DNA of 64,000 bases. Origin: Vermamoeba vermiformis. Lineage: Eukaryota. Both the position numbers and the translations under genes were made by a program. A model generated the notes under the pieces. That model was not told the origin of the DNA. It worked only from the letters and a program-made list of their open reading frames with translations, and searched no databases. Of this stretch, positions 27,372 to 64,000 are shown piece after piece (position 1 is the first letter of the stretch; each line of letters begins with the position of its first letter). The DNA is taken from NCBI GenBank assembly GCA_045837725.1, contig JBEWZL010000209.1, positions 62,001 through 126,000 on the forward strand. Reading direction: 5' to 3'.

Positions 27372-27983
27372 GCACAAAGAAGATCCAAAGTCAAAACCTC
27401 CTTTCAGCGAGAAGGAAAGAGAAATATATGAATATTCAGAACAATGTTATTAAGCGAGTGTGTTGCGCTGTCGCTTGAAGGAATAAAAAAGACTTTTTGA
27501 CACACGCGCATAGTTTCTACGGACAAACGGAAGAACAACAACTCAAAATAACGCAAATTCGAAATATCACTGTCATAAATATACGCTTCTTATACTTATG
27601 CGAGGCCTCTAGCTATTCTATTAGACTCCGTGACCGAACAATTATTGTTACGCATTTCGGGCTTGTACAAGAAAATAGATCCTAACCGTTGGCGATATGA
27701 CACATTTGATATCTAATAACCAATTTTTTAGCGATGAGGTTGTATTCATCAGCTCTTGTACCAGTCCATACGCCAAAATCAATTAATTTTGCTCGATCAG
27801 GTGAGTAATATCTTATCTATTGGTGGAATAAAGGCAATTGCATTCTGAAAATAAAATTGATAACAGCAAAATTGTTTCGCGGCGGCAAATATTTTTATTT
27901 TTTCAATTTTTTTGACCTAGAACAGCACGCAGATCAACAAAAAAGCAACGTAGTTTTCCTCCTCTTTTAAATTTGCTCAAAAT

Positions 27984-29141
27984 ATGGCTGCAGTACTCCT
28001 TGCAGACTTGGACAACGGTCCTCAAACGTGTATTTTATTGCAGATGTGGAACAAATTTAATTCCTTGTCCTCCAAACCAGCCTACCGAGCATTCTTCTTG
28101 CAATTTTCGCAAGATTTGTCTTTCAAGCATCGTGCATCAGAATTATTAGAACTGCTGGCTCTGTACAAAGAAAAATCAGCCAAGAAGAAAGAACTGCATT
28201 TGCAGCTAATCAGGCATTCTACCGCCACTTGGATTTTCTCCTCAAACAAAATCGGTCTCGGCGGTGTAGATACGGGGACGTTGACTGAGGCAGAGCAGTT
28301 AATCTCTTGCCAAGTTTTTGCAAATACAACCACAAAAGAGTTTATGCAAACGTTGGAATTGGTAAAGAAGACTAACTCACCGAACCCCACTTTGGCCTCG
28401 CGTCAATTAACTAAAGAGACCCTAAACAGTTGGCACGCGACACTCTTTGCCAATCTTCTCAAAAATCCAGGAACTTTTCGGCGACTGGGCCTCAAAATGG
28501 AGTCAACATTTGTTCCGCAGTTGAACATTACCCTCATCAATGAGCACTACTACCCGCATCATCAAATTATTCCGCACGCAATATCAGTCTTATGCGTACT
28601 CACGAGCTTTTTGACGAAGGAGATTGACAATATTAGTAACGAGCTCGAAAAACTGATCAATATTTTCTCTTTCGCTGCATTCGTGCAGTTTCATTTCGAG
28701 GATATTCGCCCGTATGTGGATGGTAATGGACGTCTGGGTCAATTCCTCAGCAAGCACTTTTTGGATTCAGTGCTGCCGTTGCCGTGCCCAATGTTTAAAA
28801 ACCGTGAAGTGTATTTATCTGCTTTTGTCATCGACAGTACGAAGGACCCCATAGAGGCTCCCGCAAAGTTGATGCTCTTACTACTCGACTGCGCAATTTC
28901 TTACTACAAAGAGGTGCTCGAGGTACTTAGCCGTTCGTACGACAAATTTTTGTTCGCTACAAGCAGTGCCGAATTCGAGCAGGCACTTGACATCGCGGCC
29001 ATCAGCGATGAAAAAGAAAGGAAGTTTTTGTCGTCGAGTTTTCGTATCTTGAAGATTGGCAGTACGGAATTGACGAGCCCTCACACCGGCAAGGTTTATG
29101 CAATCAAAAAAGAAGAGTTCTCTACTCAATTGGATGTCTAG
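27984..29141 (+). CDS. Intronless Fic/Fido-domain protein with a degenerate active site
   Basis: WHATLF...PGTFRR and FEDIRPYVDGNGRLGQ, compared with the canonical HPFxDGNGRxxR. Confidence 0.8.
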   Translation: MAAVLLADLDNGPQTCILLQMWNKFNSLSSKPAYRAFFLQFSQDLSFKHRASELLELLALYKEKSAKKKELHLQLIRHSTATWIFSSNKIGLGGVDTGTLTEAEQLISCQVFANTTTKEFMQTLELVKKTNSPNPTLASRQLTKETLNSWHATLFANLLKNPGTFRRLGLKMESTFVPQLNITLINEHYYPHHQIIPHAISVLCVLTSFLTKEIDNISNELEKLINIFSFAAFVQFHFEDIRPYVDGNGRLGQFLSKHFLDSVLPLPCPMFKNREVYLSAFVIDSTKDPIEAPAKLMLLLLDCAISYYKEVLEVLSRSYDKFLFATSSAEFEQALDIAAISDEKERKFLSSSFRILKIGSTELTSPHTGKVYAIKKEEFSTQLDV

Positions 29142-45368: not shown

Positions 45369-46668
45369 CTACTTCTTCTTCTTGCCACTGCTGTTGTTGG
45401 TCTTTGCAAACAGTTTCGGATCGATCTGATGGCGAGACTTGCCGCGCACAGAGAACAGTCTCGCGGCCCTGTCTTTCAAAGTACCGCCGCACAACAATCC
45501 ACGTCGTTGCAGCTCGACTTTGAGCACCTCCAGGCCCACAGACTCCAACTGCTCGGCACTCTCGTACGTGTTCAAGTCCAATTCTTCGTGGTCTTGCTTG
45601 CCTTGAGCGCTGTCACTCGTGGTTTGTGCCTCGGATGCAGCTGTCTCGATCTGCTGTTGTGAGTTGTTGTTGTTATTGTTGTTCGAGTGAATAGGCACAA
45701 ATTGATTATCAGATATCTTTTGGCGCTTATTCGCTCGTTCATCGCTGTTTGTGTCGTTGTTCGATCCCTCATCTTGACCTGATGCAGTCTCTTTCTCCTC
45801 GCTAGGCGGGCTGTTCTCTTGATTGCTCTCGCTCTCTTCATCGCTGCTCAAGTCCATGTCGCCCCACATCTTTTTCATCGCTTCTTTCTCCTCTTGTTTT
45901 TTCTTTTCCATCTCAGCTGCCTTGCGTTTTTTTGCGTTTTGAAGACCAGTCTCGATGGCTTTAGTAACATCTTCTAATATCTCTTTCTTTTGCTGGTTGT
46001 ATTTCACTTCTTGAGCGATTTTTAATTCTCTTTCCTGGATTTAGTTACAAAAATGTTAGCAATCTTAACCGCTATCAATAATGATAAAAATCGCTTATTT
46101 GTAATTTTAATTGATTATTCGACGATAATTTGGCTTATTAAGCGTTGAATAAGCACAATAAAGTAATTTTCTCAATTATTGATTATTTCATAATTGGCCT
46201 TGTAACGACAATTACCTTTTCTCTTTGTTCTTCTTTTTCATCTACTACTTCCTCTTCTTCATCATTTTCATCTTTCTTCTCAGTCTGTGCTGCAGCTTCA
46301 TTTAATCTTCTTTCGGCGTCCACGATCCGTATTCTACGGCCATTCAAATCACGACAAGAGTTAAAATTTGTTGTTTTTTTATGATTTAATCCTTGTCCGC
46401 CTCTGAGCAATGAACCGAAGCCTCCTTTGCCTCCATCCAGACCAAGATGCAGTTCCAAGCAGATTGGAGCATTCTGCGCTCGTGAAACAATGGTGCTGAG
46501 TTGTGCATCATTATATATATATCCTGACGTTGTTTTTAATGAAAACTGTTCATAAGGCACGCCAGCCACACGGGCAACGTGATCCTTTAAAAATCCAAAG
46601 GACAGATCAACCTTGCTCGTGCTGAACAAGGACGATCGGCCCAAGGATGATAACACGAACTGTAGCAT
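45369..46668 (-). CDS. SDE2: SDE2 (ubiquitin-fold protein involved in splicing and replication stress)
   Basis: UBL followed by GGKGGFGSLLRG, TTNFNSCRDLNGRRIR and C-terminal LKVELQRRGLLCGGTLKDRAARLF. Confidence 0.92.
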
Positions 46669-46923
46669 GGTGTTGTTAAGTCGTGTCAAACAATAAATAA
46701 CAGTTTGCCCCAGAAATTTTTTTTACTTCTCGGCGCACGTGGTCATTCTCGGCTGGATCCTATCTAGCACAGCGGTTGATGCTAGTGGGGCTGTTAGTAG
46801 ACTATTGTCGAAGTATAGCCATATTCTTGTACTAATGAGAAATGATTGTGCCATTGTCTCGATCCTTCTCGGATGTACCGTTCAATTTTGAGGATTGGGC
46901 AATATTCTCAACCAACATCTAGC

Positions 46924-49489
46924 CTACGTCTTCTTTTGCTTCTTGTTGCGCTTATGATTGAGAATGGTGTTGTAATTGCTGGTGCCATCACGAATCATCG
47001 CAATGTGTCGGTGAGCCTCGCTGCTGCTGTCCTCACTCGCACTCACTTCAATGCTCGCTGAGTGTGGCGGGGACGGGTCTGAGCGCCGCAAGTTGTCAAG
47101 GGACATGCGCTGGTGCAGCAACATCGGGTCAATAATTGGATCGTCTTCCGGGTCTATCAAGTTGTTATTAGGCCCTGGTCGCGGTGTCTCGTCACTTTCG
47201 TCGCTGCTGTCAGGCACTTCAACCACCACTGGCGCGGGCTGATTGTTGTTGTTGCTGTGCACATTGCGATTGCTGGTGGACCGGACATGGCGATCAATCA
47301 CGTAGTTGCGTGTCGGTTCAAACACCGCCATGGCCTCACCCTGCGGCCCCTCGTCATCACTCACTGCGCTGTCACTGCTACTCGGAGTGTCGCTGCTCGA
47401 TTCAACACTGCGTTCAATGCTCTGACTAGGACGACTCGTGTCACGTGATGCTCTGTCACGGCGAGTGTTGCGCGTGTGATTGGTCGAAGGTTCCAGCACG
47501 ACCTCACTCTCATCATCGAATACAACGACATCGGGACGGTTCCGATTGATAGGTGTCGCGAGGGGGTTCATGGCTGCAACACCTGCTTGGTGGATGTCCA
47601 ATAGCATAGTACGCTCAGCAGCTGCACTAATGCGCAGTGAGTCTAAGGCACGCAAGATAATGAACAGAATGCAGGCCCAGAATGTAGTCCAGCCTAGAAT
47701 AACTGCAAAGGCTAGTAGCTGCATGGCCAATTGATTTCCTGTGCCCTCTGTAAACAGTCCTCCTGTGACACGTGTCAATACAAGATTGACTATCGAATGC
47801 TCAACATTACCTCCTCCGACAGCAGGACGCAAATACACAGCCTCGATCTTGTCCGAGACTGCAAATAAACCAGTGGCAATTAGGCCCCACGAGCCACCGA
47901 AGAAATGCACGACTGGATGTAACGATTAATATTCATATTAACAAGTTGAATGTAATGGCTGCGTATTACCTGAGGCCTCAAGTGGATCGTCAATCTTCAG
48001 TCTGATCAGCAGTTTGGCTCCCCAGAAGTGAATCACTGAGCCGACAATGCCAATCGCTATCGCTGCCCAGGGCTGCACAAATGCACAGCCAGCAGTGATG
48101 GACACGAGACCAGTCAGAATGCCGTTCAGTGTGACGGGCAAGTTGTACTCTTTCATGATCAATCGTGCTTGAAACAGCGACGTGCAGCCTGCAATAGCTG
48201 CCGAGAGTGAGGTGTTCAACACGCTGATAGGAGGTTAGTGCTGTACTCTGTTTGACACGTGTCAAATGAAGTGTCTTACACTTTCGAAGCAATCGACGAG
48301 CCACCTTGATCGAGTCTCAAAATAGAGCCGCCGTTGAAGCCGTACCACGAGAACCACAAAATAAATGTGCCGAGCGTCATGAAGGCACTGTTGTTCGGCG
48401 CGAATTCGTTCTTGCGCTTGGGTTCAAATCGCTCCATGCGAGCTCCGACCACTATGGCACCGACCAGGGCAATTATTCCGCCAACCTATTTATAGACCTG
48501 TTAGCCGATGTTTCAGTGAATTTCATTTAGTCACGTGCCATATGTACGACGCCGCAGCCTGCAAAGTCGAGCACTCCATTCGCGTAGAACAAGTCGCTGA
48601 CGGGTTTGTTGGCTGTCAACCATCCTGTGACACGTGTCAATGAGTGGCCCGTATGAAATCATATCTAGCTTGTGCAACGTACCATCAGTGGCCCAGATCC
48701 AATGTGCCACCACAGGGTAGATCCACGCACTGCTGATGAAAGTGCAGACTAAATAGGCGCGCAGTCGAGTGCGCTCTAACAAGCTGCCACTGACTAATAG
48801 AGGGTCAGTGTATATGCTATGACTATTGAACACTACAAATAACGTGCCTATAGTGGCTGAAGTAAGCGAGAAAGTCCACTGAAAGAACCACGTGGTGTAA
48901 CTGACTGTCGTAGAGTCTTCAATGCCGTACAGTGCGAAGTAAGTGGTGCCTATGAATGGATTGCCTAGCATCGTGTGAGCGAACAATCATTTGCTAACTG
49001 TTTAAAGGCGGAAAATTACCCGTTCCGAAAGCAAATCCGAATCCAACCAACCTAATCATTGAAATTAGCATTCTTATATCATAATCATTTAATATGCACT
49101 ATACGTACCAAAATGCGACCGCTCCGATGCATATTGTGACAGCTTTCTGGATTTTAAAATAAATTAATATTGAAATCGGTCCAATATTAATCATCTCGAT
49201 AATATTTACGGAGTATTATCGCAGAGGCGCTTTAGTAAGTAATAATACTTACCTTTAGTAGTACTACTGTTGAATTCAATAATCGGACCCCTCCGACTTC
49301 AACTAAAGTAAAGCCAGCTTGCATAAAGAAGATGAAGCAGCCTGTTATTAATATCCACGCTATATTTAAATTTTCTGCATCCAAATCATTCTCGTAGCGG
49401 AGTTCTGAAACGGAGCGATTGAGATAGCCAATAACTGCTTTAAGCTCGTCGATTTGAGCACTGAGCTCGCTGATTGTTGGTGCGCTCAT
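46924..49489 (-). CDS. amt: Ammonium transporter (Amt/Mep) with a long disordered C-tail, multi-exon
   Basis: FFMQAGFTLVEVG, FFQWTF, YPVVAHWIW, DFAGCGVVH, NGILTGLVSITAG, IDDPL and HFFGGSWG. Confidence 0.93.
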
Positions 49490-49602
49490 TTGTTAGTGTT
49501 TACATCGTCTATTTACTCGTTAGATTAAAATACTGCACTCCGAAACCCGGATTAATCAACCGAATTTTCGCAAACATTTACAACAAGTCCAATAGCAACC
49601 AA

Positions 49603-50195
49603 ATGTGGCACAGACTCATATCAAATTGTCGTGCAGTCGTTCGGAACACCTCCGCAAGCTCGAGACATATGGGTGGCGAGTTTTTATTAAACAGATCCCG
49701 CAGGACGCAATCATCAACTCGAAATATTATTACGTCAGACAATTATAATATTATGTAAGTCACTTGTATCAAATTCTACGTTAAAGAATTTTTGTAATTT
49801 TTTTGAATTTTCTTTCAGGTCAAATTCAATTTCGCGAGCGTTTTGTACCGGTAACAAGACGAATAAACGTAAGTTATTAGCACAGCGATTAATGTAATTA
49901 ATTATGAGCATTAGTCCCGACACTCAATGAGATTCAGTCCTACAACACAGATCAGCTCTGTCAGTGGCTAGCTCGCTATTCAGAAGAGACTAACAGCGAC
50001 ACCAACAGTGCTGCTAACACCTCTCACACGCGCATATTCAACGATCAAACAATCACCGCGCTGCGCGGACAGCTGATCGATGGCCCGTCGCTGTTCAACT
50101 ACCCCAGTGCGCGCTCCATTCAGTGCAGTGGTGTGCAGCACAAACAGGCGCAACGACTGTTCGAACTGATTCAACTGATCAAACGTGGCAATTAG
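49603..50195 (+). CDS. Small protein with a mitochondrial-like presequence and a SAM-like domain (not in the ORF track), 3 exons
   Basis: Exons 49603-49754, 49819-49868 and 49915-50195 splice in frame to MWHRLISNCRAVVRN..IQSYNTDQLCQWLA..ALRGQLIDGPSLF..AQRLFELIQLIKRGN*. Confidence 0.65.
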
Positions 50196-50360
50196 GGGGC
50201 TGTAACACAGTGCTTTGATTTGTAATATAGAATGTTTAAATACACAATGCATACACAGCGAATGTTTTGTACAACAGTGGACGATGCCGACTAGAGTGAG
50301 CTACATATGGTGCTCTTATATATAGTGCCCGTATATATAGTCCCCAGACCAGTGCCAGTC

Positions 50361-51734
50361 CTACAGGAGTCTGAAGGTCAGACTGGAGGCAATGAACAGC
50401 GCACCAGTGGCCACGAGCACTGAGCCCCAGAATGCCTTGCGTTCAGTCTCTGGCCGTGTGCCGAGATCAACGAGCAGTCGCTCCATTTGATACGAGACGA
50501 CGCGCTGCACGAGAGTGAAGGGAATGATCTTCAAGTGATTCTGCACCACACCCTTGAAGATGCCACTCACGCCTTCCTCTTGCAAAATATCTGCAATGCC
50601 TTCCCACGTGCCTTTGTACGCGAACTGATGACCGGCAGGGAAGATTGTGCTTTGAATCTGCAAATGAGAGCGTCGTTAGAGATCACTGTTTGACACGTGT
50701 CAATCACGTACCTGCATGCGCTTCTTGATCAAATCGAGCGGGTAAGAGGCTGTTTGCGCGACAAAGTTGGCACCGACCCCTAGTCACGTGATCAGTTCAT
50801 TAGTTCACTGAACGAGAGCTATATTTAGTATCACGTACAGATGGCAAAGTCCGCAAATCTGTTGCCGCGGCGATTGAATTTCTTGGAGAGCCAATTGTAG
50901 AGCAGCACTGCACCGCCTTCATAGGGCACTACGGCGAGCACTGCTGGCAACACGCCACCGTAGAGACCTGACACCTGTCAACGTGTCACTTGCCTGCTCG
51001 TGTCTTACGCGTCATGCAACTACTTACACCTTCTTCTTTGACGAGACGAGCCATGCCAGTCCACGTGCCTGGAGCGAGATACAGCGTGAGATATCATTAC
51101 TATAAAAGGAAATATTCGCTCAATGTACCGTGGTAGTAGTCGCGCCAGGGCTGCACAGTCAATCTGTTCTTGATGGTGTCGAATGGGTGCGTGACAAACA
51201 CTGCAATCATGCCAGCCAATATTCCCTAATTAGGAAATAATTGAGCACGTTCTCACTGATACGTATTGAAATAACTTACGACGACATTGTGATTCTTGAA
51301 TACCGACCACATGGTTTGCGATTGCATCACCCACATGCGCGTGACCAAAAATGGAATAAGACGCCACACTGCCGTGCCGTTGCCTTTGAACCAAAAAAGG
51401 AAAGGGTTCTCTTTCAGTAACGCGTCTTTGACTGGCTCCGTGGCCCAGATTGTCTGCAAAAATACGATTAATACGGGTCAATACTGCTGACCATATAGCC
51501 ATTTAATATTAGTGCGCATTTAATACCGTTTTAGCGCTCTTGTGCACGGCAATAATGATTTTTGCTACATCCAGCGGACTGGTGATGGTGCGGGCTGAAG
51601 ATCCGGCCACAAAAGAGCAGACCAACATCTCCCATCGCTGCAATGGTCTTCCTATGAATTAATAGTCGTATTAGTGACTATAGGGCGTAATTTGTGTCGT
51701 AATGAAACTACAACTTCGAATTTACACCGTTCAT
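50361..51734 (-). CDS. Mitochondrial carrier (SLC25) protein, multi-exon
   Basis: Three PxDxxK motifs (SPLDVAK, HPFDTIKNRL, YPLDLIKKRMQ) plus YKGTWEG..EEGVSGIFKG. Confidence 0.85.
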
Positions 51735-52077
51735 TGAATTTAAAATGAAATATATATTATTTAATAATAATTTTTGGCTTGATATTATTTGGGCACCATA
51801 GTTATATTGCTCTTTTCATTAAAATTCCGTATCGTAATTTTTTTGGGAGCTGAAAATCTTTTTGTCGCATTTTGTTATTGGCTATTTAATCACGCTGTAA
51901 TTTGCAGTCCTAAATTACATATTATATTTGACAAATAAAAACTACTTACTGTTCGACATGGCCACGTGTGTCTGTTTGAACAAATAAAATGAAATATTTC
52001 TTATTGTTTTCAATTTCAATTTTATTGACGCAGCACACGGCACAAAAGGTTAACTATTAGAGTTCAACTGATATATA

Positions 52078-55000
52078 ATGCCACTTCACGAGGTCGGATG
52101 TTGTACGAAGCACAAGTTTGCGCACGAAGGTGAATCTGGTGAACAGCAACACGAGAGCCAGAACAGCTCTAGCAAGGGCTTTACAGTCACCAATCCCGAG
52201 AAGCGATATGCGCCGCACTTGCATATTGAACCCAAGCACTTGGACATCACTATTGACGCTGCACAACTGGAGCAGAAATTGGTTGATATTCAATTGACTT
52301 ATTTACTCGAAAATAACACTGTTGGTGCCTCGACTATTACTTTTAATGGCATAGGTACGATATAATACCTTTCTCGAGCTTTCTGGATTTCTTTACCAAT
52401 TTTTAATTTGTCTACCGCTTCTTAGAGCAATACTAGTACTAAACACTTGACCGTTATGTGAGTATACTTATAATTACTAGATTTTGCGGACATCAAGGTC
52501 AGCGGTGAGGGCAAGCCAGACTGGTAAGACGAGTGTAGTTGCAATATTGCCTTTAATATTAATGTTGCTATCTTAGGACCTATGACGGCAAAGAGCTCCA
52601 AGTTTGTTTCAGTGAACCATTCGGCGCTGTTCATGAACGCCGATCACTCACCATCTCGTATCGAGTGGCGCATCCACTCGTTGGCTTGCACTTCTCCGTG
52701 CCCAATGATAAATATCCGCAAAGACCTCTGTTCGCCATGACCGGTATGCGCTTAATTTCCTTTTATGGCAATGCTGACTTGCCGGGCCCAATCAGATCAC
52801 GAGACCGAGAAGGCGCGCTATTGGCTGGCATGTGTCGACTATCCCACTGTGCGCACCAGTCTCGCGTACCACATCACTGCCAAAAAAGGTAAAGTCGTTG
52901 CCAAATATAGTCATTGTGTCTCACACTGGCAGGACTGGTCGTGGTGGCCAATGGTGTGCACGAGAAGGACGAAGAGCTCGATGTGACACGTGTCACTTCG
53001 CACTGGCGACTCGAACAGCGCTGTCCGTCGTACTTGATCTGCTGGGCTGTCGGGGACTTCCAAATTGGTCAGTATTGCCTAATTAGGCTATAACGTACTC
53101 ACACCGCGCAGAACACGACAAAGACGTGCACGGCATTCCCATCGCGTACGTGGCCCCGAAGAATGTGTCACGTGATGTCTTGCGCAGTTCATTTGCAGCC
53201 ACGCCTGCCATCATGAATTTCCTCGAAACCAGACTCGGCGTGCCCTTCCCATTCCCCAAGTACTATCAGATCGCTGTCTCTGGTGTACTCGGTGGGGCGA
53301 TGGAGTACGTAGTTTGACACGTGTCACTCGCAGGTCACTAACAGCCGTGCCATTCACAGAAACATCAGTTTGACATCGTGGAGCGTGCTGTTCTTGTGCG
53401 ACGAGACCTGGGCCAAAGAGTTCCAACTGTTCACTGACGAGGTCAATGTGCACGAGATGGCGCATTCCTATTTTGGTGACAGTGTTGTCATGCGCCACTT
53501 CGAACACGTGTGGCTGAAGGTACAGCTCCAATAATAGCATTGAATGCAGTGCGTAATCCTCATTAGGAATCCTGGGCGACATATATGGAAAGTGTGTGGC
53601 TCGAACAGCACCGCGGCGACGATGAATTCCGCTACGAAATGTACACCAATCTGCACTCGTACGTCAGCGAGACCAACAGCTATGTGCGTCCAATGGTTGA
53701 GCGCCGCTACGACCACTCGTGGGACATGTAAGTGGCACTTATTGCCTTATTTGGCAAGCGTACTGACCTGCGTTAGGTACGACTCTCACACCTACCCTGG
53801 CGGTGCATGGCGCATTCACATGTTGCGGTGAGTACTGTGGTGGCACATGTCAACACGTGCACTGACTGCTCGTTCATGAATCAGCCGTCAGTTGGGCGAT
53901 GACGCGTTCTGGGCAGGTGTCAAAGACTATCTCACGACATATGCTGGCAAGGTGGTGGAGACCGATGACTTCCGCAAGTGTCTCGAGAAGTACAGCGGCA
54001 CCAATCTGACCAAGTTCTTCGACCAATGGTACTAATTATAGCGCATGTGAGTCCGCTAATTGCCTTATTTAGGTACTACTCGGCAGGATTCCCGAAATTG
54101 AAAGGCAGCTACGAGTTCAAAAAAGAGACCAATCGCGTCAAAGTAACGCTCGAACAGACGCAAGTGGACGAGAAGACTGGCGTGGCACTGTTTGACATTG
54201 CACCGGTCATTGAGCTCGTGGACGAGAATGGCAAGACATATCGCGCGACTGTCGTGTTTGAAGGGGCACGTGGCTCAGTGGTGGTGCAAGTGGACAGCAA
54301 GCCCGTGTCGGTGGTGGTGGACCCTGACTACGCGCTGCTGCACACACTCGACTTCAATCCCGGCACCGAGCTCTTGAAGCACACGCTCGTGCACTCTGCG
54401 TCCATGCCACACCGCGTCTGGGCTGCGAAAGAGCTCATCAAGGCACGTGCACTGTAGTCGTAGCACTCAGCACTAACAGCTTCATCCTGCAGCACGGCAG
54501 CTATCAGAGCTTGCAAGCAGTGGATGCGGCCATGAAGACGGAGCAGTTCTACGCGGTGATTGGTGAAACTGCTGCGGCCCTCGCCAAGTCCAAGTCACCC
54601 TTTGCGCTGGATGGTACGTGTGCGTGATTGATCGATACGCGTATTAATGGTGATGTGCAGTGCTCGTCAATATCCTCGCCAACACGCAGCTCGTCAAGGC
54701 ACAAGTACGTGACACAATACAATAGTGATGCTACTGGTACTCATCTCTTATTGTGACCGCGCAGACTATCTCCACACTCGCTGCAATGTCAGTGCGTCAT
54801 CCCAAGATCAGAACTGCACTCCGCGACTACTTGACGCGTACTAACTTGCCCTACCGCGCCACCGCTCGTGCTCTGAATGGACTCGGCAAACAAGTGCGTG
54901 CATGCATTGTTATTGGCACGCAATTACTGACCACTTGTTGACAGCGCAATGAAGAAGATGTGCCGCTGTTGATTGAATGGGCACAACGAAAAGACGTGCT

Positions 55001-55675
55001 CCACGGGTACCACGCCATTGTGTTGTCGGTACGTGAATTCATGAACGAGATGTGGTGTGCTGAGTGGTGTTGATAGGGCGCTATTCGTGGCTTGGGGGAC
55101 AGTCAGTCGCGCAAGGCCTGGGAGTACTTGTACCACGCTGTACGTGACACGTGACATGTTGACAGCTGCATTGACACGTTGTTGCCTAATTAGGTTGATG
55201 AAGGTGTGTTGCCTGAGCTTGCACGTGTTGTTGCCATTGAAGCCCTCGGTGAGATCGTAAGTGTCGCACAGTTGTCACGTGATCGGTGACTGACACGTGT
55301 CCAGAGCAAGATCGACGAGCAGTGCAAGGAGAAGGCACGACTCAAGCTAGAACAGCTGTTGATGGAAGAGAACTACGCTGTGCGCAAGAGTGCCATCACC
55401 GGTAAGCACTGACAGACCTGCCAATGACACTTTGACACGTGACTGATTGACACCTGTCAGCCCTCGTGACACTCAAGGCCTCCAGCTCGAGCAGTGCCAT
55501 CAGAGCCGCCCTCATCTCGCACCAAGATGCGCCGTGGCTGCAACGCAAGCTGAAGACCTTGTCCGAGGCCAAGAGCGGCGAGGAGCTGAAGAGCGAAGTG
55601 AGTGACTTGACGGCCCGCGTCAGCGAGCTCGAGAAGAAGCTGCAGCTGTTGAGGGAGAACAAGGCACTCAACTAG
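52078..55675 (+). CDS. M1 zinc aminopeptidase with C-terminal HEAT-like repeats and a coiled coil, about 18 introns
   Basis: GGAME|N, HEMAHSYFG..WLK|ES (HExxH-x18-E) and YPGGAWRIHML. Confidence 0.9.
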
Positions 55676-55759
55676 TGTTCGGTGACAAGTGATTGCGAGT
55701 AAATGCTCTTAGTGTTCTCTCTTATTATGGCTATTTTTATGTACAAAGTTAATTACAAA

Positions 55760-56681
55760 TTAGGCAAACAGTTGCACGAGCACCAGACCGAGCACAAAAA
55801 TAACTGCAAAGTCAATCCAGAGTCGTCTATCTGCCACGGGAGATTTAGCTGTCGTGGGTACTGCAGCTGATGTCACTTCCTTATTAGGCAAAGTCACGTG
55901 TGCATTCTTTACTGCCCCGTGTTCGGTTGGTTTAGACTCGATTAACAGCGGCACTGGCTCGTGATCCACAAAGCAATTCTGCGCAAAAGGTCGTTGTAAT
56001 TGATACTATTGTCCTATTTATAATAATTTCACTTACGTAAAACTGTGCTTTCTTGTTCAAATGTTCGATCAGCACTGGATCGCGATCAGTAATTGACTTG
56101 ACAAACACATCGAGGTCTTCTTTGCACCACTCGTATGCCCAGGCTAGTACGATAATATTGATTATTAGTCTGTCTATTCAGCAATTACCAAAACATACCC
56201 AGATGTGGTCCAACAATGTTGTGAGTTCTACACGCGTCGCATAGTGCAATGTAGGCAGCAGGACCTCGCTCTTCAAATATCGATAATAGGGGCTGTATAT
56301 AATGCAATTAATAACCTCACACAACGACGAAGCAAAGAATTACCGAAATTTACCTTTAACGATCCAGCATTAGATCGAGCCAGCTTGTTGCCAATAGCCT
56401 GAAAATTAATTAAAATTATTAAGAAAATTATTGGCGGTATTTGACGCGTCACATATTACCGTGAATATCAAATCCCACTGCTCAGCTTCTGCCGCTCGTT
56501 TAGGATTGTTCCAATAGACCTTGGCCTCGTCAATCAATGTGTCTGCAGCGATGTCTTTCAGTGCTACTTCAATAGCACGCTGATCTATCGCGCCACTCGT
56601 GCTCTGGTCCTGCACTGGCGCTTGGTCGCTCTCTTCGCCACATCCACAACTCGTGCAGCCTCCTGAACCACACGCAGACAT
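55760..56681 (-). CDS. Hypothetical tail-anchored protein with an N-terminal Cys cluster, 5 exons
   Basis: Exons splice in frame from MSACGSGGCTSCGCG to a C-terminal TM LWIDFAVIFVLGLVLVQLFA. Confidence 0.6.
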
Positions 56682-56808
56682 GGCGTATGTATAACTGTTA
56701 ATAATTGCACTGAAGGTTGACTCGTTCAGTTTTTATTGACAGCACGTGGCTGGTTCAACAACAGAAATTTCCCGAGTAAAGTGTGATTGCATGCTGGGGA
56801 TTGGTCAG

Positions 56809-58065
56809 TCAGCGAATCTCTGTTCGATCTCGTGAGGGGACACCATTGGACACTACTGACCAATCCTCGTCAAGCCACAGACTAGCGACACCTATCGTAC
56901 TCCAAGCGACACGTGTCAATCACCATGCCTATTCACTACCAGGCTTGCTACAGCTCGTGCCAGGTGCCACCAGCTCAGCCAGCACGCGTGACTCGGCATC
57001 AGACCTGGCACCAACGAGCTGCAGTTTGGCGCGCTGTTTGAACACGGTGCTCATGCGCGGCTGTTCCGTGAGCACGCGGTGAACAGTCGCTGGCAACAGG
57101 CCACGTGTCAATCGCGCGACAGTGTCACCGAGTAGCACGAGACAGATCGATCGGTCACGTGGTCCTGCGCGCCAATCACGTGTCAGTGGACTGTAGATTT
57201 CGAGGCCACTCTCACTGGTGCCAGGGATGAGCGTCAACAGCCCTGCTGCGCATGAGTGACATTGCCCAATTAGGACATTCATCGGACGTACCTCCGTCAG
57301 TATGCGGCACACAGCCCGTGGAGTGCGGTCGTGTGTAGTGAAACACATTCAGACAGCTGTTCGACCACGCACTCGAGAGCGGATCTAGCACTTGCGACAC
57401 GAGCTCTGCGGGCTCTGACGGTGATGACGTGTCGGTCACATGATCGGCAGTGAGATCTCCAGTCACGTGATCACCGTGCAGGTCAGCAGTCACGTGTAGA
57501 TATCGCTCTACCAGGGCCTCAAGACACGTGCGCGCAATGGCCTCGAACAAGAGATAGACGCGCGTACTGATCGCAGCGAGTGCTGGTGAGGGCCAGGCGG
57601 TGAATGCAGGCACGTGACGGATCTGCAGTGAATGATTAGATGGTTGATATATTTGATATGTGACTGTTGGATAATGATTCTATTCGCTGAACGGAAATTG
57701 AATTTCAGATTTTAATTGATTAATTATTTGAAAATAATAATATATACAATAATATTGTCTTAAATACGCTCGTAGTTAACTACCTGAAATGTCTCTTTGA
57801 TTCCTCGACTCGCCATGTATCCAGCATCGTACTGCGCCTCAAAGTGCTGTTCCTTGCGCTCCTTATCCTCGTTGAAAAACAGCTTTGAACTCGCGCGCAG
57901 CTGTTCGAGCAGGTCCACGGCTACATCTGGCAGTTGTAACAGCGCATAGCCTTTGTGCTGCAGTGCAAAGTAGAACTGTTCGTGATCATCTGCGAGGGTG
58001 ACATTAAAGGGTTGTATATGATTGTCAGCCCTAGTCTCCACGGTGACCTTGAGTGGTGTGTACAT
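56809..58065 (-). CDS. 2OG-Fe(II) dioxygenase (IPNS/DIOX family)
   Basis: DIOX_N-like ALQHKGYALL..LFFNEDKERK; HTDG|GLLTL, GDTVARLT..ATVHRV..RMS. Confidence 0.85.
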
Positions 58066-58132
58066 CTGTTTGTGTAAATAATTGTAATTACCACGAACAC
58101 ACCGCAGTAACAATTAATACTGTACTATAGTC

Positions 58133-58841
58133 ATGGAAAAGGCACAAAAATACGCAGAGGGTGTTATCAACGACCCTGTAGTCGAATTCGCTTGGTAAGT
58201 GCCGAACTGAGATCTGATCGAGTTGATCGCGATCTGAATTGACGAATAATTGCGTATTAAATTAATTGCGTAAATAATACGTAATATTAATGGCCCACCT
58301 AAATTAATATCAAAATAATAATTATTTTTTAACGTTTGTAAAAATATTAAGCACGTCATTGAGCTAATACACCCGTGAACTATAGGGCTGAAGTTGCAGC
58401 TAAGCACGCTGAAACACACTTCAAGCTGTTGACTTCATTCGCGGACAGTACGAAGCTCAATCTGACCAAACTCGACGATGAGATCTACAAACACTTCCGA
58501 CAGGTGAGTTAGAGCGTGATCTTAGCGGTAGATGTATATACTAACCCCTGCACTATTACAAGGTATTCCCTGAATTGCGCGTGGATGTTTTGGACTATGA
58601 CGCGATGAAAACAGATGCAGCTAAATCTGAGTGGCGTGACTTCTTCAAGCCTTACGAGCAACGAGTGCATCAATTCAACTTTGCGACGTTGTTGCGCGTT
58701 AATAGCAGTGATGAAGAGGGCTATTGGGAGAAGAATACGATCATTGTCCCGCGGATTCAGTTCTTGGCCATTGAAATCGCTCGTAACAAAGAGGGCCACA
58801 ATAAGAAGTTATATGATACATTACAAAGCAAGAAGCAGTAG
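58133..58841 (+). CDS. PBDC1: PBDC1/YPL225W-like protein, 3 exons
   Basis: NDPVVEFAW|AEVA, LTKLDDEIYKHFR, KSEWRDF, FNFATLLR and VPRIQFLAIEIARNKEG. Confidence 0.88.
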
Positions 58842-59114
58842 ATAAATGCGGTCACTTGTGTAATTATTAAGCGAATAGTCGCGTGTGGTGGGATCGATCG
58901 AGTTTTATTTTGTTACAAATCTTTAAGATTGTGATTAGGCAGTACCTTTCAAACTGCGTGCATCCCTTAATATACCTATAGCCGATTAGTACTGTTGAAA
59001 GGTGTCTATTCAAGTTCGGAATTTACTTTCAGTTGTCGTTTAAAATTTGGATGCAGGACCTCGAGTGAAGTGCGGTGAAATTGATTTTATTACGGGCGAT
59101 AGTGCTATATTCCA

Positions 59115-61420
59115 ATGAATAAGAATAAGGCCAACACTGGCAATAACAAGCCTAAACAGGTATCACTAAACTAAAAAATTATAAGTCCATTTCGAAATCT
59201 GATTGAATAGTAATTTAATAGTTATTATTTAAATTAATCCTATTAATGGCGATATATGCGCATTTAATTGTACCATAATTAATAATTTTCGTCTTTGATA
59301 GCCCACATCCAACACAAAATCAACCAAGCCAAAAGAAGCAGCAAAAAAATCAGCCACAACCACGTGCGTGTATTTACAGCCCTATTAATTATTATATGCT
59401 CCGAGATATTTATATTTGATTTCGATAAAGCTATTGAAATCTACAGATATTTTCGAGTACAAAAGCTGTGCCAAATTTAGTAACACATTGATTCATTGCA
59501 GAACTGCAAAGACTGCACCGAAGACAGCCAGTACAAGTGTCAAACCGACGCCTGTCACCAGCACCACGGCCAGTGCGAAGAAGACACCAGCAACCAAACC
59601 CAAGGCAGCAACAAATGTCAAACCCCCGCCTCCAGCTGTTGAGACTAAAAATAGCGCTGAGAGTACCACCAACGAGAACAACACAAATGTCAAAGTGGAG
59701 TCACCGCCGAGCAGCACAGACAAAGTTGAGGTGAGTGTCAAAGCGACACCTGCCGCGCCGAAGTCCAGGTATGTAATTGACACGTGTCATAATCGCACCA
59801 CCGCAGTCGAGACTGACATTGACACCTGTCAAAGTGCCAAAAAAGCACCTGCAGCAACAGCGAAGAGCAAGACGAGCACTGCCACTGCCAAGACGAGCAC
59901 GACAAGTGTCAAAGCGAAGCCTGCAACCACAACCACCTCCAAGACAAGTGTCACCAAGCCACCTGCACCGACTGCCAAGACCAGCGCTGCCAAAGCAGCT
60001 GACAAGAAGCGACCAGCCGCGACAAGTGTCACATCGAGTGTCAAATCCAAGCCCGCGACCACGACTTCCAAAAGTGGCAAGAGCAGTGCCAACACATCGA
60101 AATCGAACAGTCGTCAGAGCAGTCGCCAAGTGTCACCGAGCAGCACGGTCAGTGACAGGTACGCACTGGTCTATATTGCCCTAACACCACTAATGACACG
60201 TGTCATTGCAGGTCAAAAGTGTCACACGAGACACCTGACAGTCACGAGACACCAGCTGGCACACCCAATGACACGCCTGAAGACAGCGTGACACGACCAC
60301 GTGCCAACACGACGTCCCTGCGCGACCTGGTCACGGTGTTCGAGTCCACCGCGCAGCTCATTGCCGCGAGCACGCAACCTCCTGAGAAATCTCCGCGGAG
60401 ATCAAGTGTCAAATCGTCAACGCTGCGACAGCTCAGCAAGAAATTTGAGCGGGAAAATGAAGACAGCACGGATGATCTCCGAAAATATCTCAGTCTGCGC
60501 CACCTGGACGCCTCATCGGAACTGCTCCGATCTCCACACGTGACTGAAAATATTCCGCTGCTGTTGTGGAGCAATCACGTGACAGCTGAGCACGTGGTGT
60601 CGAACGATCACGTGCTGGTGACAGCGACGAGTGAGGAGTACGTGACGGTGTGGGACCTGCTCGAGAACAAGTGAGTGTTGCGTCTATATTTGGTTCTTTG
60701 CACTTATTAACTTGATGTGTCAGTGCGCACCAGTTCAGTGGACATACGAGTCACGTGACGGGCATGGCACTGGCAGCCGAGGGCGATCAGATCGTGACGC
60801 TGAGCGAGCACGAGATACTGTCGTGGCGCGCGAGTGACTGTCACGTGACTGGTCAGCAACAACTGCGCGCTGATCTCGTCGCACTCACCTCCGACGGAGC
60901 ACACGCGGTGACAGCTGTCAATGCCGAACTCACGCTGTGGACGGGCGAAGAGCTCAAGCCCCTGAAGACAATCTCGCACGGAGATCACGTCACGTGCTTG
61001 ACCATGTGGCCGCGCAGTGCGGGACAATTGCTATTTATAGTCACTGGATCACGTGATCGCGCCATCAGACTGTGGGACCTCGCAACAGGCGAGTGTCTGA
61101 GCACGATTGAAGACGCGCACCAGGGCCCCATCACTGCACTGCGCGTGCTCTCCCAGGGCCGTCACGTGATCTCGTACTCGGCACGTGATCAGCACGTGAA
61201 GATTTGGGAACTGGACAACAAGGAGTGCGTGCTGCAACATCACGTGACTGAACCCTGCACGCGCACCCTGATCAAAGTGGTGTCAGACTGGAGTCACGTG
61301 ACTGCGCGCGAGAGTCAGCAGTGGGACGATCTCCTATTGGCCACCGAGATTCAAAATCTCAAACTGCAGATTGGACTCAGCGAGGGCTGCTGTTGCATTC
61401 TGGTCAGCGACGAGTTGTAA
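59115..61420 (+). CDS. WD40-repeat protein with a Lys/Thr/Ala/Ser-rich N-terminal region, multi-exon
   Basis: VTGSRDRAIRLWD, AHQGPITAL..VKIWE and low-complexity KPATT repeats. Confidence 0.75.
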
Positions 61421-61591
61421 ATTATTATTAAAATATCCTCCCTGTTAATACTGACCACGCGCTTGTTCTCGTTCATGAACCGTCGCGCACGTGATTTGTC
61501 ACGTGGATTTGTGCCCTGAGGGACTTGTTCGCTTCCAGAATCTACTTTTGTTGCCTCACCGAAGTAAAGACATCTATATTAACCCTTTATA

Positions 61592-64000
61592 ATGTCCGCT
61601 CTCGGTGCTGCGAAGATAAAGCTCTTTTTAGCGAATCTTGTGGATCATTACAGCAAGAGTTCAGTGAGCGCTAAAAACAAGTTCAGTGGTCGTCAAACAC
61701 TCCTCGGCACTGGCTTGGTATTGTTCGGCGCTGTAGTGACGATATATAAGAGGATTCAATTCAACAAAGTTAAAAAAGAGCGAGAGATCGAAACGACTAC
61801 GAAGATCACACCAGCTACCAAGCAAAATAATAAGGTGAAAGTAGACAAGCTATTCTTTAAGAGATTGGGCGATATTTTGAAGATTATTGTGCCCTCGTGG
61901 AAGTCCACTGAGGCCCTACATCTGATCGTCTTGACTATTCTCTTGTATTCCCGCACTATATTGAGGTATGTATGCACTAATATATGAACGCGTCGTATCG
62001 ATGTACTGTCATGTCGGAATAACGACTACGGGCCATAGTAAGGCCCGATAAATGACACATCTCCATTCAACCGTCACTAACGCTTGAATCCAGCATTAAA
62101 GTCGCTGATATTACTGGCAAGAATGCTCAATACATCGTGCAGAAGAACTTGAAGGACATATTCTTGGGCATAGTGCAGTTCGCGCTGATTGGTGTGCCTG
62201 CGTCGCTCGTCAACAGTGGCTTGCGTTACGCAACGGATTCGCTGTCGTTATTGTTCAGAAAACGACTGACCGATCATGTGAACAACGAGTACTTGAAGGG
62301 CACTAACTTCTATAAGGCCTCCAACTTGGGCGGTGAGAGCAGAATTGACAACGCGTAAGTAGCGGATCTAACCTTAGAAGTGCTGTTCGAACCAGATGAT
62401 TGATGCGTATATAGCGATCAACGAGTGACAAGAGATATTGAACGTTTCAGCGAGTCATTGAGCTCATTGTACGCGACTATCTTCAAGCCATTGTTGGATG
62501 TGATCTTGTTTACGTACAAATTAGCTCTCGTGCTAGGTCCTCAAGGTCCTGCGCTTATATTTACTTATTACTTCTTCAACGCACTCGTCAAGCGATTCTT
62601 GATGCCCGCCTTTGGTAAAGTAAGCAAAGTCTCGAATAATTTTTAGATCTCGGATATGCTCTCGAGAGGAATAAGAAGCTAATATAACGCTCTTATTAGT
62701 TGACGGCGCGCGAGTCAGAACTCGAAGGCGACTATCGCATGGCACATCAACGGCTCATCACCAACAGCGAGGAGATCGCGTTCTACGACGGCAGCAAGCG
62801 CGAGAAAGAGATCATTTCGCGCCTATTTATGGGCGTCTATCACCACGCCAACTACTTCAACCACCTCAAGTTCTTGGTCGGCATATTCGACGAGTTCTTA
62901 GTCAAGTACGGTGCGAGCATCATTGGCTATGTGATCTTAGCGCTGCCCATCATTCAAGGTACGCCGTTAATAGGCCCCTATTCATATAGAGCTCTATACT
63001 CACCTCACACAGGCCGCACTGGCTCCAAGACCACCGCTGATCTCACGGGAGATTTCGTCCGAAATAGGCAATTGCTGATTTCACTCGCCAAGGCCATTGG
63101 TCAGCTCATCGTGCTCTTCAACAAAGGTACGTGTTTGACACGTGTCGCCAGTACACCTCCGCTCACTTGCCTTATTTAGTCACCATGCTCGCGGGTCTGA
63201 CAGCACGTGTCGCGGAATTACTCGAAATGGTCAAGACACTTGAAGGCGCGGGCAATGCTCCGTTTGAACTGCGCGATGATGACACGCGTCAAAAGGTGAC
63301 TCAGGCCGCACCCGAATCGCAGCCTGCTGACGTATACAAACAAGGTAAGTGGCACTTTGACACCTGTCACTCGACCAATGGCTAATGATACGTGTCAGAC
63401 GAGCACATTGACGCGTGGCTTGCCTCGTTCAGTGAACGCAAAACAGCGCAGCGAACACGTGTCATTTCGAATCCTCCAAGCGAGGCTGAGCTGCAGCAGT
63501 TAGCCGCGTCGAGCAAACAGCGCGGAGTGTTGCTGGAGGGCGAGCTGATCAAATTCATGAACGTGTCGATTGTGTCGCCTGAAGGCAAGTTGTTGGCACG
63601 TGACATGTCATTTGAAGTCAAGCGCGGTCAGAATGTCATCATCACTGGCCCCAACGGTGCTGGCAAGAGCAGTTTGTTCCGCATTCTCGTACGTAGCACA
63701 CGTGACACTTTGATGCAAACCACTGGTTGACACGTGTCACAGGGTGAACTCTGGCCCCTGCACTGCGGTGTAGTGGTCAAGCCGCGCAAAGAGGACGTTT
63801 TGTTTGTGCCGCAAAAGCCTTATTTGGTGTTGGGCACTCTGCGCGATCAGGTCATTTATCCGCACAAAGGTCAGTGTTTGACACGTGTCACTTGGCAAAG
63901 ACTAACCCATCATTGCAGAGGTTGACATGAAGGCAGCAGGAGTGACAGACTCGGACCTCGAACGACTGATGGACATTGTGGACCCTTCGCGCACCATCCT
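61592..64000 (+). CDS. ABCD: Peroxisomal ABC half-transporter (ABCD/PMP70 family), continues past the window end
   Basis: [21 protein letters not shown] (EAA-like), [14 protein letters not shown] and PQKPYL. Confidence 0.93.

What the first reader, a model, noticed from the sequence alone, without database searches (positions are those of the whole stretch)
60190..61510. CACGTG saturation of coding DNA imprints 'HV(T)' on a WD40 protein (HIP1-like behaviour)
Seen: about 17 CACGTG hexamers in 1.3 kb (e.g. 60298, 60537, 60576, 60591, 60609, 60752, 60842, 60991, 61050, 61163, 61182, 61193, 61241, 61295), where fewer than one is expected. They occur in different reading frames and give HVT/HVV/HVL/HVI/HVK, SRD/ARD and VTC peptides. 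The 7-kb CHD gene has only about 3 by eye. Inference: a DNA-level force, either mutational conversion or selection for the site, is overriding protein-level constraint in weakly constrained genes, as HIP1 does in cyanobacteria.
Basis: partly seen in the sequence, partly recalled or inferred. Interest (0 to 1): 0.7.

Follow-up and report, generated by a model that had tools for sequence, protein, structure and literature searches.

The report
Motif-packed genes around candidate amoeba centromeres
In a common freshwater amoeba, most large chromosome pieces examined have one zone of about 60 kb around a small repeat core that looks like a centromere, and genes in that zone are so packed with protein-binding DNA words that the words change the proteins' amino-acid sequences.

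Summary
The count is right: 17 CACGTG in 60190-61510 against 0.39 expected; 14 lie in exons of a spliced WD40 gene, 10 of them read as His-Val. The cause is regional rather than HIP1-like. The organism is Vermamoeba vermiformis or a close relative. The gene lies about 20 kb from a 2.5-kb gene-free, CpG-poor nest of MITE-like repeats. One such nest is found per contig on 40 of 40 contigs hit. Within 30 kb of a nest, hexamer density is 2.9-5.0/kb and GC about 0.5; beyond 40 kb it is 0.4-0.8/kb and GC 0.41. A blind test on other contigs gave 98 per 40 kb near versus 10 per 32 kb far. His-Val is the top dipeptide only in these zones. A diverged relative keeps 87 of 89 intronic motif positions but only 237 of 575 others. 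The genome encodes CenH3, USF/MITF-type bHLH-ZIP and PKNOX/MEIS-type proteins. Best reading: a candidate centromere with a sequence-encoded pericentromere. Centromere function and protein binding are inferred, not shown.

The parts
59115..61420 (+). WD40-repeat gene, about 617 aa, 6 exons (59115-59159, 59302-59363, 59502-59768, 59835-60158, 60212-60670, 60724-61420); Lys/Thr/Ser/Ala-rich N-terminus, beta-propeller C-terminus
   Evidence: Hand-built model; WD40 Pfam hit; joints in X24 and X21 at or near the modelled introns, the 5' end least certain; orthologue L023 at 89% aa identity over exon 6
60212..61420 (+). Exons 5-6 with 14 CACGTG sites, mostly in the extended 8-10 bp form (type example 60750-60759, 'motif E')
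   Evidence: 8 of 9 sites in exon 6 are kept in L023
60192..60207 (.). 16-bp perfect palindrome in intron 4; its central 12 bp (60194-60205) are the type example of 'motif T', two inverted 5-bp half-sites 2 bp apart
   Evidence: spacing 2 occurs 52 times versus 0-4 at other spacings; a 14-bp form occurs 511 times in the genome versus 0 for the control
59778..59789 (.). Motif T in intron 3 of the WD40 gene
61592..64000 (+). Peroxisomal ABCD-type transporter gene (runs past the window end); its 3' introns carry motif T copies (e.g. 63728-63739, 63879-63890)
   Evidence: intronic motifs are kept in L023 while the rest of each intron has diverged
46001..64000 (.). Part of the left flank of the motif-rich, GC-rich zone (G000:C209 about 108-180 kb). 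Its core (C209 about 143.1-145.6 kb) lies outside the window, about 17 kb beyond its right end.

Best explanation
The WD40 gene lies in the pericentromere of a small chromosome of about 0.65 Mb. SHOWN: each examined zone is centred on a 1.5-3 kb gene-free nest of shared MITE-like repeats, CpG-depleted and almost free of the hexamer. Its flanks, about 30 kb each side, are gene-dense, GC-rich and CpG-intact, and are packed in exons and introns (not between genes) with two palindromes. These palindromes are conserved between lineages and bias codon and amino-acid choice. INFERRED (about 0.7): the nest is the methylated CenH3 centromere core. INFERRED (about 0.85): motif E is bound by a USF/MITF/Cbf1-type bHLH-ZIP dimer and motif T by a PKNOX/MEIS-type TALE homeodomain dimer (site preferences recalled, not from a call). 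INFERRED (about 0.55 against the drive rival): the bound proteins give the flanks a pericentromeric chromatin state. That state would keep the genes unmethylated and active beside the silenced core, confine CenH3, and perhaps recruit cohesin or kinetochore factors as Cbf1 does in yeast. Selection on chromosome function then accepts tolerable changes such as x-Val to His-Val in permissive proteins.
For: There is one density and GC peak on the whole 649-kb contig C209. That contig starts with telomere repeats and has similar ~2,600-aa genes near both ends. One motif cluster was seen on each of C3, C8, C11, C12, C13, C36, C44, C48. Cores were later found inside or beside clusters predicted from motifs alone: C44 and C36, C12. 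The core module gave 81 matches on 40 contigs, each in one cluster of 3 kb or less. Core CpG o/e is 0.34-0.70 with TG/CA raised. Core copies differ at 150 of 427 CpG positions versus 704 of 6671 others. A BAH-plus-methylase (DNMT1-type) gene is present. The blind near/far test gave p=0.004 for the motif and p=9e-5 for GC. Conservation in L023 is strong. A CenH3 is present whose 9 best PDB hits are Cse4/Cnp1. bHLH L137 is nearest to MITF/USF2/SREBP; TALE L191 is nearest to PKNOX1/Meis.
Against: There are no ChIP, Hi-C, methylation or binding data. GC peaks at these zones, whereas yeast centromeres sit in GC troughs (recalled). Sites are rarer between genes (0.57-0.94/kb) than in exons (2.6-4.4/kb), which is odd for regulatory sites. 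The core itself lacks the hexamer (1 in 12.6 kb), unlike yeast CDEI. The 4-fold-site shift is broad and context-dependent, and other words are also enriched, more than two factors explain. Only 11 telomere junctions were found, so most contigs are not proven whole chromosomes. In one search, 46 of 86 candidates were not scored. C235 has a second, solo repeat copy. C6 (348 kb) showed neither zone nor core cluster in the listed hits. One of 10 blind near loci had 0 sites (C101); its other flank had 10 in 2.5 kb. Gene models come from my own predictor, which merges some genes.
Confidence: 0.45

Rival explanations
1. Same location, non-adaptive upkeep ('protected allele wins'). DNA breaks are frequent around the core. 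Alleles covered by a tight-binding factor or a stable nucleosome are cut less often and serve as repair templates. Gene conversion therefore fixes strong binding sites of several factor families, and nucleosome-friendly sequence, even at some cost to proteins.
For: Density is equal in exons and introns and low between genes. The 4-fold shift is strand-symmetric, context-dependent and absent in some contexts, so it is not plain GC bias. A/T runs are fewer and purine-pyrimidine alternation is raised. Several unrelated words, including A/T-rich ones, are enriched over synonymous shuffles. GC at 4-fold sites falls off gradually with distance. Drive mimics purifying selection in the L023 comparison.
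Against: Crossovers are normally suppressed at centromeres (recalled). No polymorphism data could polarise changes, because the SNP table showed 40 rows and hid 1437. Whether the extra words are zone-specific was not tested. A literature search for this mechanism returned 0 papers.
Confidence: 0.25
2. The core is not the centromere but a once-per-chromosome pairing or recombination centre, or a dominant replication origin; the motifs recruit its machinery and GC rises by biased conversion.
For: The GC peak fits high recombination. Motif clusters within a gene-containing region once per chromosome resemble C. elegans pairing centres (recalled). The orientation-averaged 4-fold skew changes sign near the core.
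Against: The skew is not significant (p=0.08 at 144 kb) and is absent in introns. C209 offers no other repeat nest or long gene-free island for a centromere: the predicted gaps are 1.8 kb or less, and the core modules hit nowhere else on it. Methylated transposon clusters are the centromeres of Dictyostelium (PMC13510849, passages).
Confidence: 0.17
3. HIP1-like genome-wide palindrome, made or kept by a methylase or mismatch-repair ratchet, and visible mainly in weakly constrained genes.
For: Genome-wide excess of 2.3x over the control; 2.5-2.6x excess far from cores; motif T in introns far from cores at 0.3/kb; 8 C5-methylase matches in the genome.
Against: Density depends 6-10-fold on distance to the core. 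The deamination product of the hexamer is not enriched (0.72). Motif T tolerates a central change that removes the hexamer, also between lineages at 63139.
Confidence: 0.06
4. Ordinary gene regulation (exonic factor sites, 'duons') or protein-level need for His-Val in WD40 strands.
For: Val is normal at that WD40 position (recalled); two sites lie upstream of the ABCD gene.
Against: The effect covers unrelated genes on at least 16 contigs, by position. A His-Val not coded by the hexamer (60984-60989) is Asp-Val in L023. Intergenic DNA is poorest in sites.
Confidence: 0.04

Closest known systems
Transposon-cluster regional centromeres, e.g. Dictyostelium DIRS-1 centromeres (PMC13510849, passages)
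   Same: One CpG-decayed repeat nest per contig examined; amoebozoan; CenH3 encoded.
   Different: The core is only 1.5-3 kb, internal rather than telocentric, and built of ~650-bp non-autonomous elements with terminal inverted repeats and 3-bp target duplications. It is flanked directly by ordinary genes.
Budding-yeast CDEI/Cbf1 (PMC13462599, passages)
   Same: An E-box of the CACGTG class near a centromere; a bHLH-ZIP of the same broad group is encoded (Cbf1 hit E=2e-4).
   Different: Yeast has one site inside a 120-bp point centromere. Here roughly 170 sites lie in the flanking gene bodies of C209 and almost none in the core. L137 is closer to MITF/USF than to Cbf1.
Cyanobacterial HIP1 (PMC5861425, passages; PMC4390886, search listing only)
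   Same: A palindrome over-represented in coding DNA in all frames, conserved beyond codon need, and proposed to serve chromosome structure.
   Different: HIP1 is genome-wide and quasi-periodic. This signal is concentrated once per contig, eukaryotic, made of at least two motif classes, and shows no clear short-range spacing.
C. elegans pairing-centre and X-chromosome recruitment motifs; bacterial DNA-uptake sequences (all recalled, no call)
   Same: Motif clusters that mark a chromosome region; uptake sequences imprint on proteins.
   Different: Here the same motifs occur on all chromosomes examined, arranged symmetrically around a repeat core and inside exons.

Membership tests
Regional centromere | One locus per chromosome | tested here: met
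   40 of 40 contigs hit by the main module have a single cluster (46 of 86 candidates unscored). One solo copy of a second element lies on C235. Contigs are not all proven chromosomes.
Regional centromere | Gene-free, repeat-built, methylated core | tested here: met
   Six cores read in full and four more in part; CpG o/e 0.34-0.70. Methylation is inferred from CpG decay, not measured.
Regional centromere | CenH3 encoded | tested here: met
   L232: longer loop 1, Trp in place of the H3 Phe, best hits Cse4/Cnp1.
Regional centromere | CenH3/kinetochore occupies the locus | not testable with these tools
   Needs ChIP or Hi-C.
Regional centromere | Early replication or skew inversion | tested here: inconclusive
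   4-fold skew difference p=0.08; introns show none.
Point centromere (CDEI-II-III) | Single E-box within a ~120-bp AT-rich element | tested here: not met
   Cores are kilobases long, GC 0.39-0.45, with 1 hexamer in 12.6 kb.
HIP1-type iterated palindrome | Over-represented in coding DNA and conserved beyond codon need | tested here: met
HIP1-type iterated palindrome | Genome-wide, roughly even or periodic spread | tested here: not met
   One peak on C209; near/far 2.45 vs 0.31 per kb. Kilobase-scale periodicity was not tested.
HIP1-type iterated palindrome | Cognate orphan methyltransferase acting on the motif | tested here: inconclusive
   C5-methylases are present but their specificity is unknown; no deamination shadow of the hexamer.
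MITE (PIF/Harbinger-like by recall) | Short, non-coding, terminal inverted repeats, 3-bp target duplication | tested here: met
   About 645 bp, ~26-bp inverted ends, duplication in 3 of 4 intact copies.
MITE (PIF/Harbinger-like by recall) | Autonomous partner transposase in the genome | not tested

The most novel reading that the evidence does not exclude
Vermamoeba writes its pericentromeres into the genes themselves. About 60 kb around each tiny MITE-nest centromere is saturated with sites for ordinary transcription factors (bHLH-ZIP, TALE, perhaps MADS-type), kept either by selection on segregation or by a protected-allele conversion drive. Chromosomal position thereby rewrites the amino-acid sequence of some 30 genes per chromosome. 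This would be a sequence-encoded pericentromere of a kind not found in the searches made here.
Probability: 0.4. Interest if true: 0.92.

Novelty: new variant of a known kind. Interest (0 to 1): 0.84.

Why it matters
It yields coordinates for candidate centromeres on more than 50 contigs of a tubulinean amoeba. Amoebozoa are absent from a 2026 centromere atlas, Acanthamoeba centromeres were not located by Hi-C, and clustering in the group is called largely unclear. It also shows chromosomal position overriding codon and residue choice in a eukaryote, which bears on how pericentromeres are specified and on dN/dS and codon-usage work in this host of giant viruses. A 2-3 kb core with known flanks is a direct candidate for minichromosome vectors.

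Tried and rejected
Orthologue search with exon 6 among longer proteins found only generic WD40 proteins; shorter and near lengths were not searched. The metagenome scan gave 1 true orthologue among 65 loci. No indexed RNA holder was listed; this is no evidence on expression. Strain polymorphism could not be polarised, because the table was cut to 40 rows. Tandem or long repeats do not explain the sites. An RNA-hairpin reading of motif T was weakened: it also occurs in exons and has no fixed intron position; the sense-strand centres were 48 self-complementary, 5 of one asymmetric form, 0 of its mirror and 1 other, too few to exclude a strand effect. Generic palindrome correction was rejected because other palindromic hexamers are not raised. 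Replication skew was inconclusive. Rfam found nothing in 60 kb including five cores. H3 variant L186 was considered as CenH3 and dropped, since its best hits are H3. Earlier scan notes: 5 look-ups, all empty. The zone-versus-far comparison for the additional enriched words was not obtained, so their zone specificity is open.

Full report
OBSERVATION. CACGTG is the commonest hexamer of the window (87 copies), and there are 17 in 60190-61510 against 0.39 expected. A six-exon, 617-aa WD40 gene was modelled by hand. A contig of run X24 and reads of run X21 skip introns at or near the modelled places. Fourteen sites lie in exons 5-6, 10 of them as His-Val. Synonymous shuffles give 7.9+-1.3 and codon-order shuffles 1.5, with 0 of 5000 reaching 14. 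Both codon choice and residue choice are therefore affected.

ORGANISM. The Hsp104-type ORF at 1450-3669 is 97% identical to P0124, whose cluster holds a protein labelled Vermamoeba vermiformis. The assembly is 43.3 Mb in 309 contigs; the window is C209:62001-126000.

TWO MOTIFS. Motif E is the hexamer with preferred flanks (type example 60750-60759), mainly exonic. One 10-bp form occurs 1304 times versus 92 for the control. Motif T is a pair of inverted 5-bp half-sites 2 bp apart (type example 60194-60205), mainly intronic: 52 at spacing 2 versus 0-4 at other spacings, and 511 versus 0 for a 14-bp form. Single-mismatch neighbours are rare, except a central change in motif T that removes the hexamer.

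CONSERVATION. L023 is the only orthologous locus among 65 returned. It keeps 20 of 27 hexamers, including 8 of 9 in exon 6, and has 2 of its own. It is identical at 87 of 89 intronic motif positions versus 237 of 575 other intron positions, and at 23 of 28 four-fold sites in motifs versus 288 of 528 outside (p=0.005). Two-fold sites show no significant difference (7 of 8 vs 416 of 544). Three of four exonic sites in the conserved ABCD gene are lost.

ONE ZONE PER CONTIG. The whole of C209 (649,273 bp) starts with telomere repeats and has one peak at about 110-180 kb: 15-37 hexamers per 10 kb versus 0-12 elsewhere, GC 0.48-0.51 versus about 0.40, with a minor rise at 540-560 kb. With my own gene predictor (275 genes), four-fold GC is 0.63-0.68 at 120-180 kb versus 0.39-0.47 at 220-640 kb, and intron GC 0.38-0.40 versus 0.30-0.35. 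Hexamers per kb are 2.58 in exons, 2.52 in introns and 0.94 between genes, against 0.44, 0.63 and 0.43 outside. The first 100 listed hits of two patterns showed one cluster each on C3, C8, C11, C12, C13, C36, C44 and C48, a few hits at the end of C2 and on C30, and none on C6. In 170 kb from five of these zones the densities were 4.44, 4.30 and 0.57 per kb, and His-Val was again the top dipeptide (2.72x; Val-His 0.84). Per-gene density runs from 0 to over 7 per kb and rises with gene length (Spearman 0.56, n=96). Small housekeeping genes carry 0-1 sites (names judged by eye). dN/dS was not measured.

THE CORE. In all six zones read, the middle holds a 1.5-3 kb stretch without credible genes, built of modules shared between contigs at about 72-95% identity. 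On C209 my predictor had called a false gene there. Cores have CpG o/e 0.34-0.70 and 1 hexamer in 12.6 kb. Density is 2.9-5.0 per kb within 30 kb, 1.2 at 30-40 kb and 0.4-0.8 beyond (the far bins come from C209 alone). The main module hit 40 contigs, each in a single cluster of 3 kb or less (81 matches; 40 of 86 candidates scored). A second module added 13 contigs and one second site on C235. That site proved a solo copy with intact CpG (1.13) and a weak flank (2 sites per 2.5 kb versus 8 beside the main core). A core-specific spaced palindrome occurs 245 times versus 18 for the control, and its listed hits cluster at cores, including one inside the C12 zone. The main module is a ~645-bp element with inverted ends and a 3-bp target duplication in 3 of 4 intact copies, so MITE-like. 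Counting, 58 contigs carry core sequence. Some are tiny or broken at the core, so this overstates the chromosome number.

BLIND TEST. Ten 4-kb stretches 8-9 kb from cores on ten other contigs held 98 hexamers (GC 0.51; 9 of 10 with 4 or more, one with 0). Eight far stretches held 10 in 32 kb (GC 0.40). p=0.004.

TRANS FACTORS. CenH3: L232 (criteria from PMC2995078, passages). bHLH: 7 matches, 3 with the His-Glu-Arg basic region that reads this E-box (signature recalled); L137 is nearest to MITF/USF2. TALE homeoboxes: 11 matches; L191 is nearest to PKNOX1/Meis. That such dimers bind motif T is recalled, not tested. C5-methylases: 8 matches on 4 contigs, one with a BAH domain.

HOW IT WORKS. The simplest role for a methylated-looking repeat nest present once per contig, on a near-complete chromosome with no other such feature, is the centromere. 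The flanks are then pericentromeres marked by dense factor-binding sites inside genes. Most likely these keep the flanks in a distinct, unsilenced state and are held by selection strong enough to change tolerant residues. The main rival keeps the location but replaces selection with conversion favouring protein-protected alleles. The broad, strand-symmetric, context-dependent shift at four-fold sites and further enriched words favour that rival, and nothing here separates the two. A pairing centre or origin remains possible, since a GC peak is unusual for a centromere (recalled).

LITERATURE. No description of these motifs, zones or centromeres turned up. The library lacks most subscription journals, and I did not find or read the genome paper of this species. 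Passages only were read of PMC9528979, bioRxiv 10.64898/2026.09.17.752431, PMC13510849, PMC5861425, PMC2995078 and PMC13462599. No supplements were read; those of genome papers could mention centromere repeats.

VERDICT. The feature is real and larger than first described. Interest 0.84; new variant of a known kind, with a categorically new reading not excluded.

Noticed in passing
window 62959-63012: A 54-nt intron of the ABCD gene is cleanly absent from the orthologous locus L023: an intron gain or loss between lineages.
   Followed up: no
G000:C209:1442-10940 and 628135-637549: Similar ~2,600-aa predicted genes near both ends of the contig, judged by their N-terminal sequences; probably a subtelomeric family. 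The last 9 kb are CpG-poor (0.48).
   Followed up: no
coding DNA of the zones (C209, C8, C48, C13, C11, C3): Further words are enriched over synonymous shuffles, including A/T-rich 7-8-mers resembling MADS-box sites and TALE half-sites (resemblance recalled). The HpaII-site tetramer is depleted (0.27 vs 0.63 far).
   Followed up: partly
G000:C3 about 446.2-447.1 kb (core): The core holds an ORF-like fragment and a short stretch that looks like the 5' end of 18S rRNA (recognised from memory; Rfam found nothing). About 800 bp are 97% identical to the 4.3-kb contig C14.
   Followed up: partly
G000:C209:540-560 kb and C11 about 344-374 kb: Minor secondary motif clusters; on C209 there is no core module there. 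Possibly relics of former centromere positions.
   Followed up: no
L181, L182, L184, L185, L186, L233, L229: Many divergent H3-like and histone-fold genes besides CenH3, including one with long acidic inserts.
   Followed up: partly
window 27954-29141: ORF with a Fic/DOC domain.
   Followed up: no
L138 (G000:C276 about 328 kb): One bHLH gene itself lies 19 kb from a core, and its locus carries 12 hexamers in 3.2 kb.
   Followed up: no
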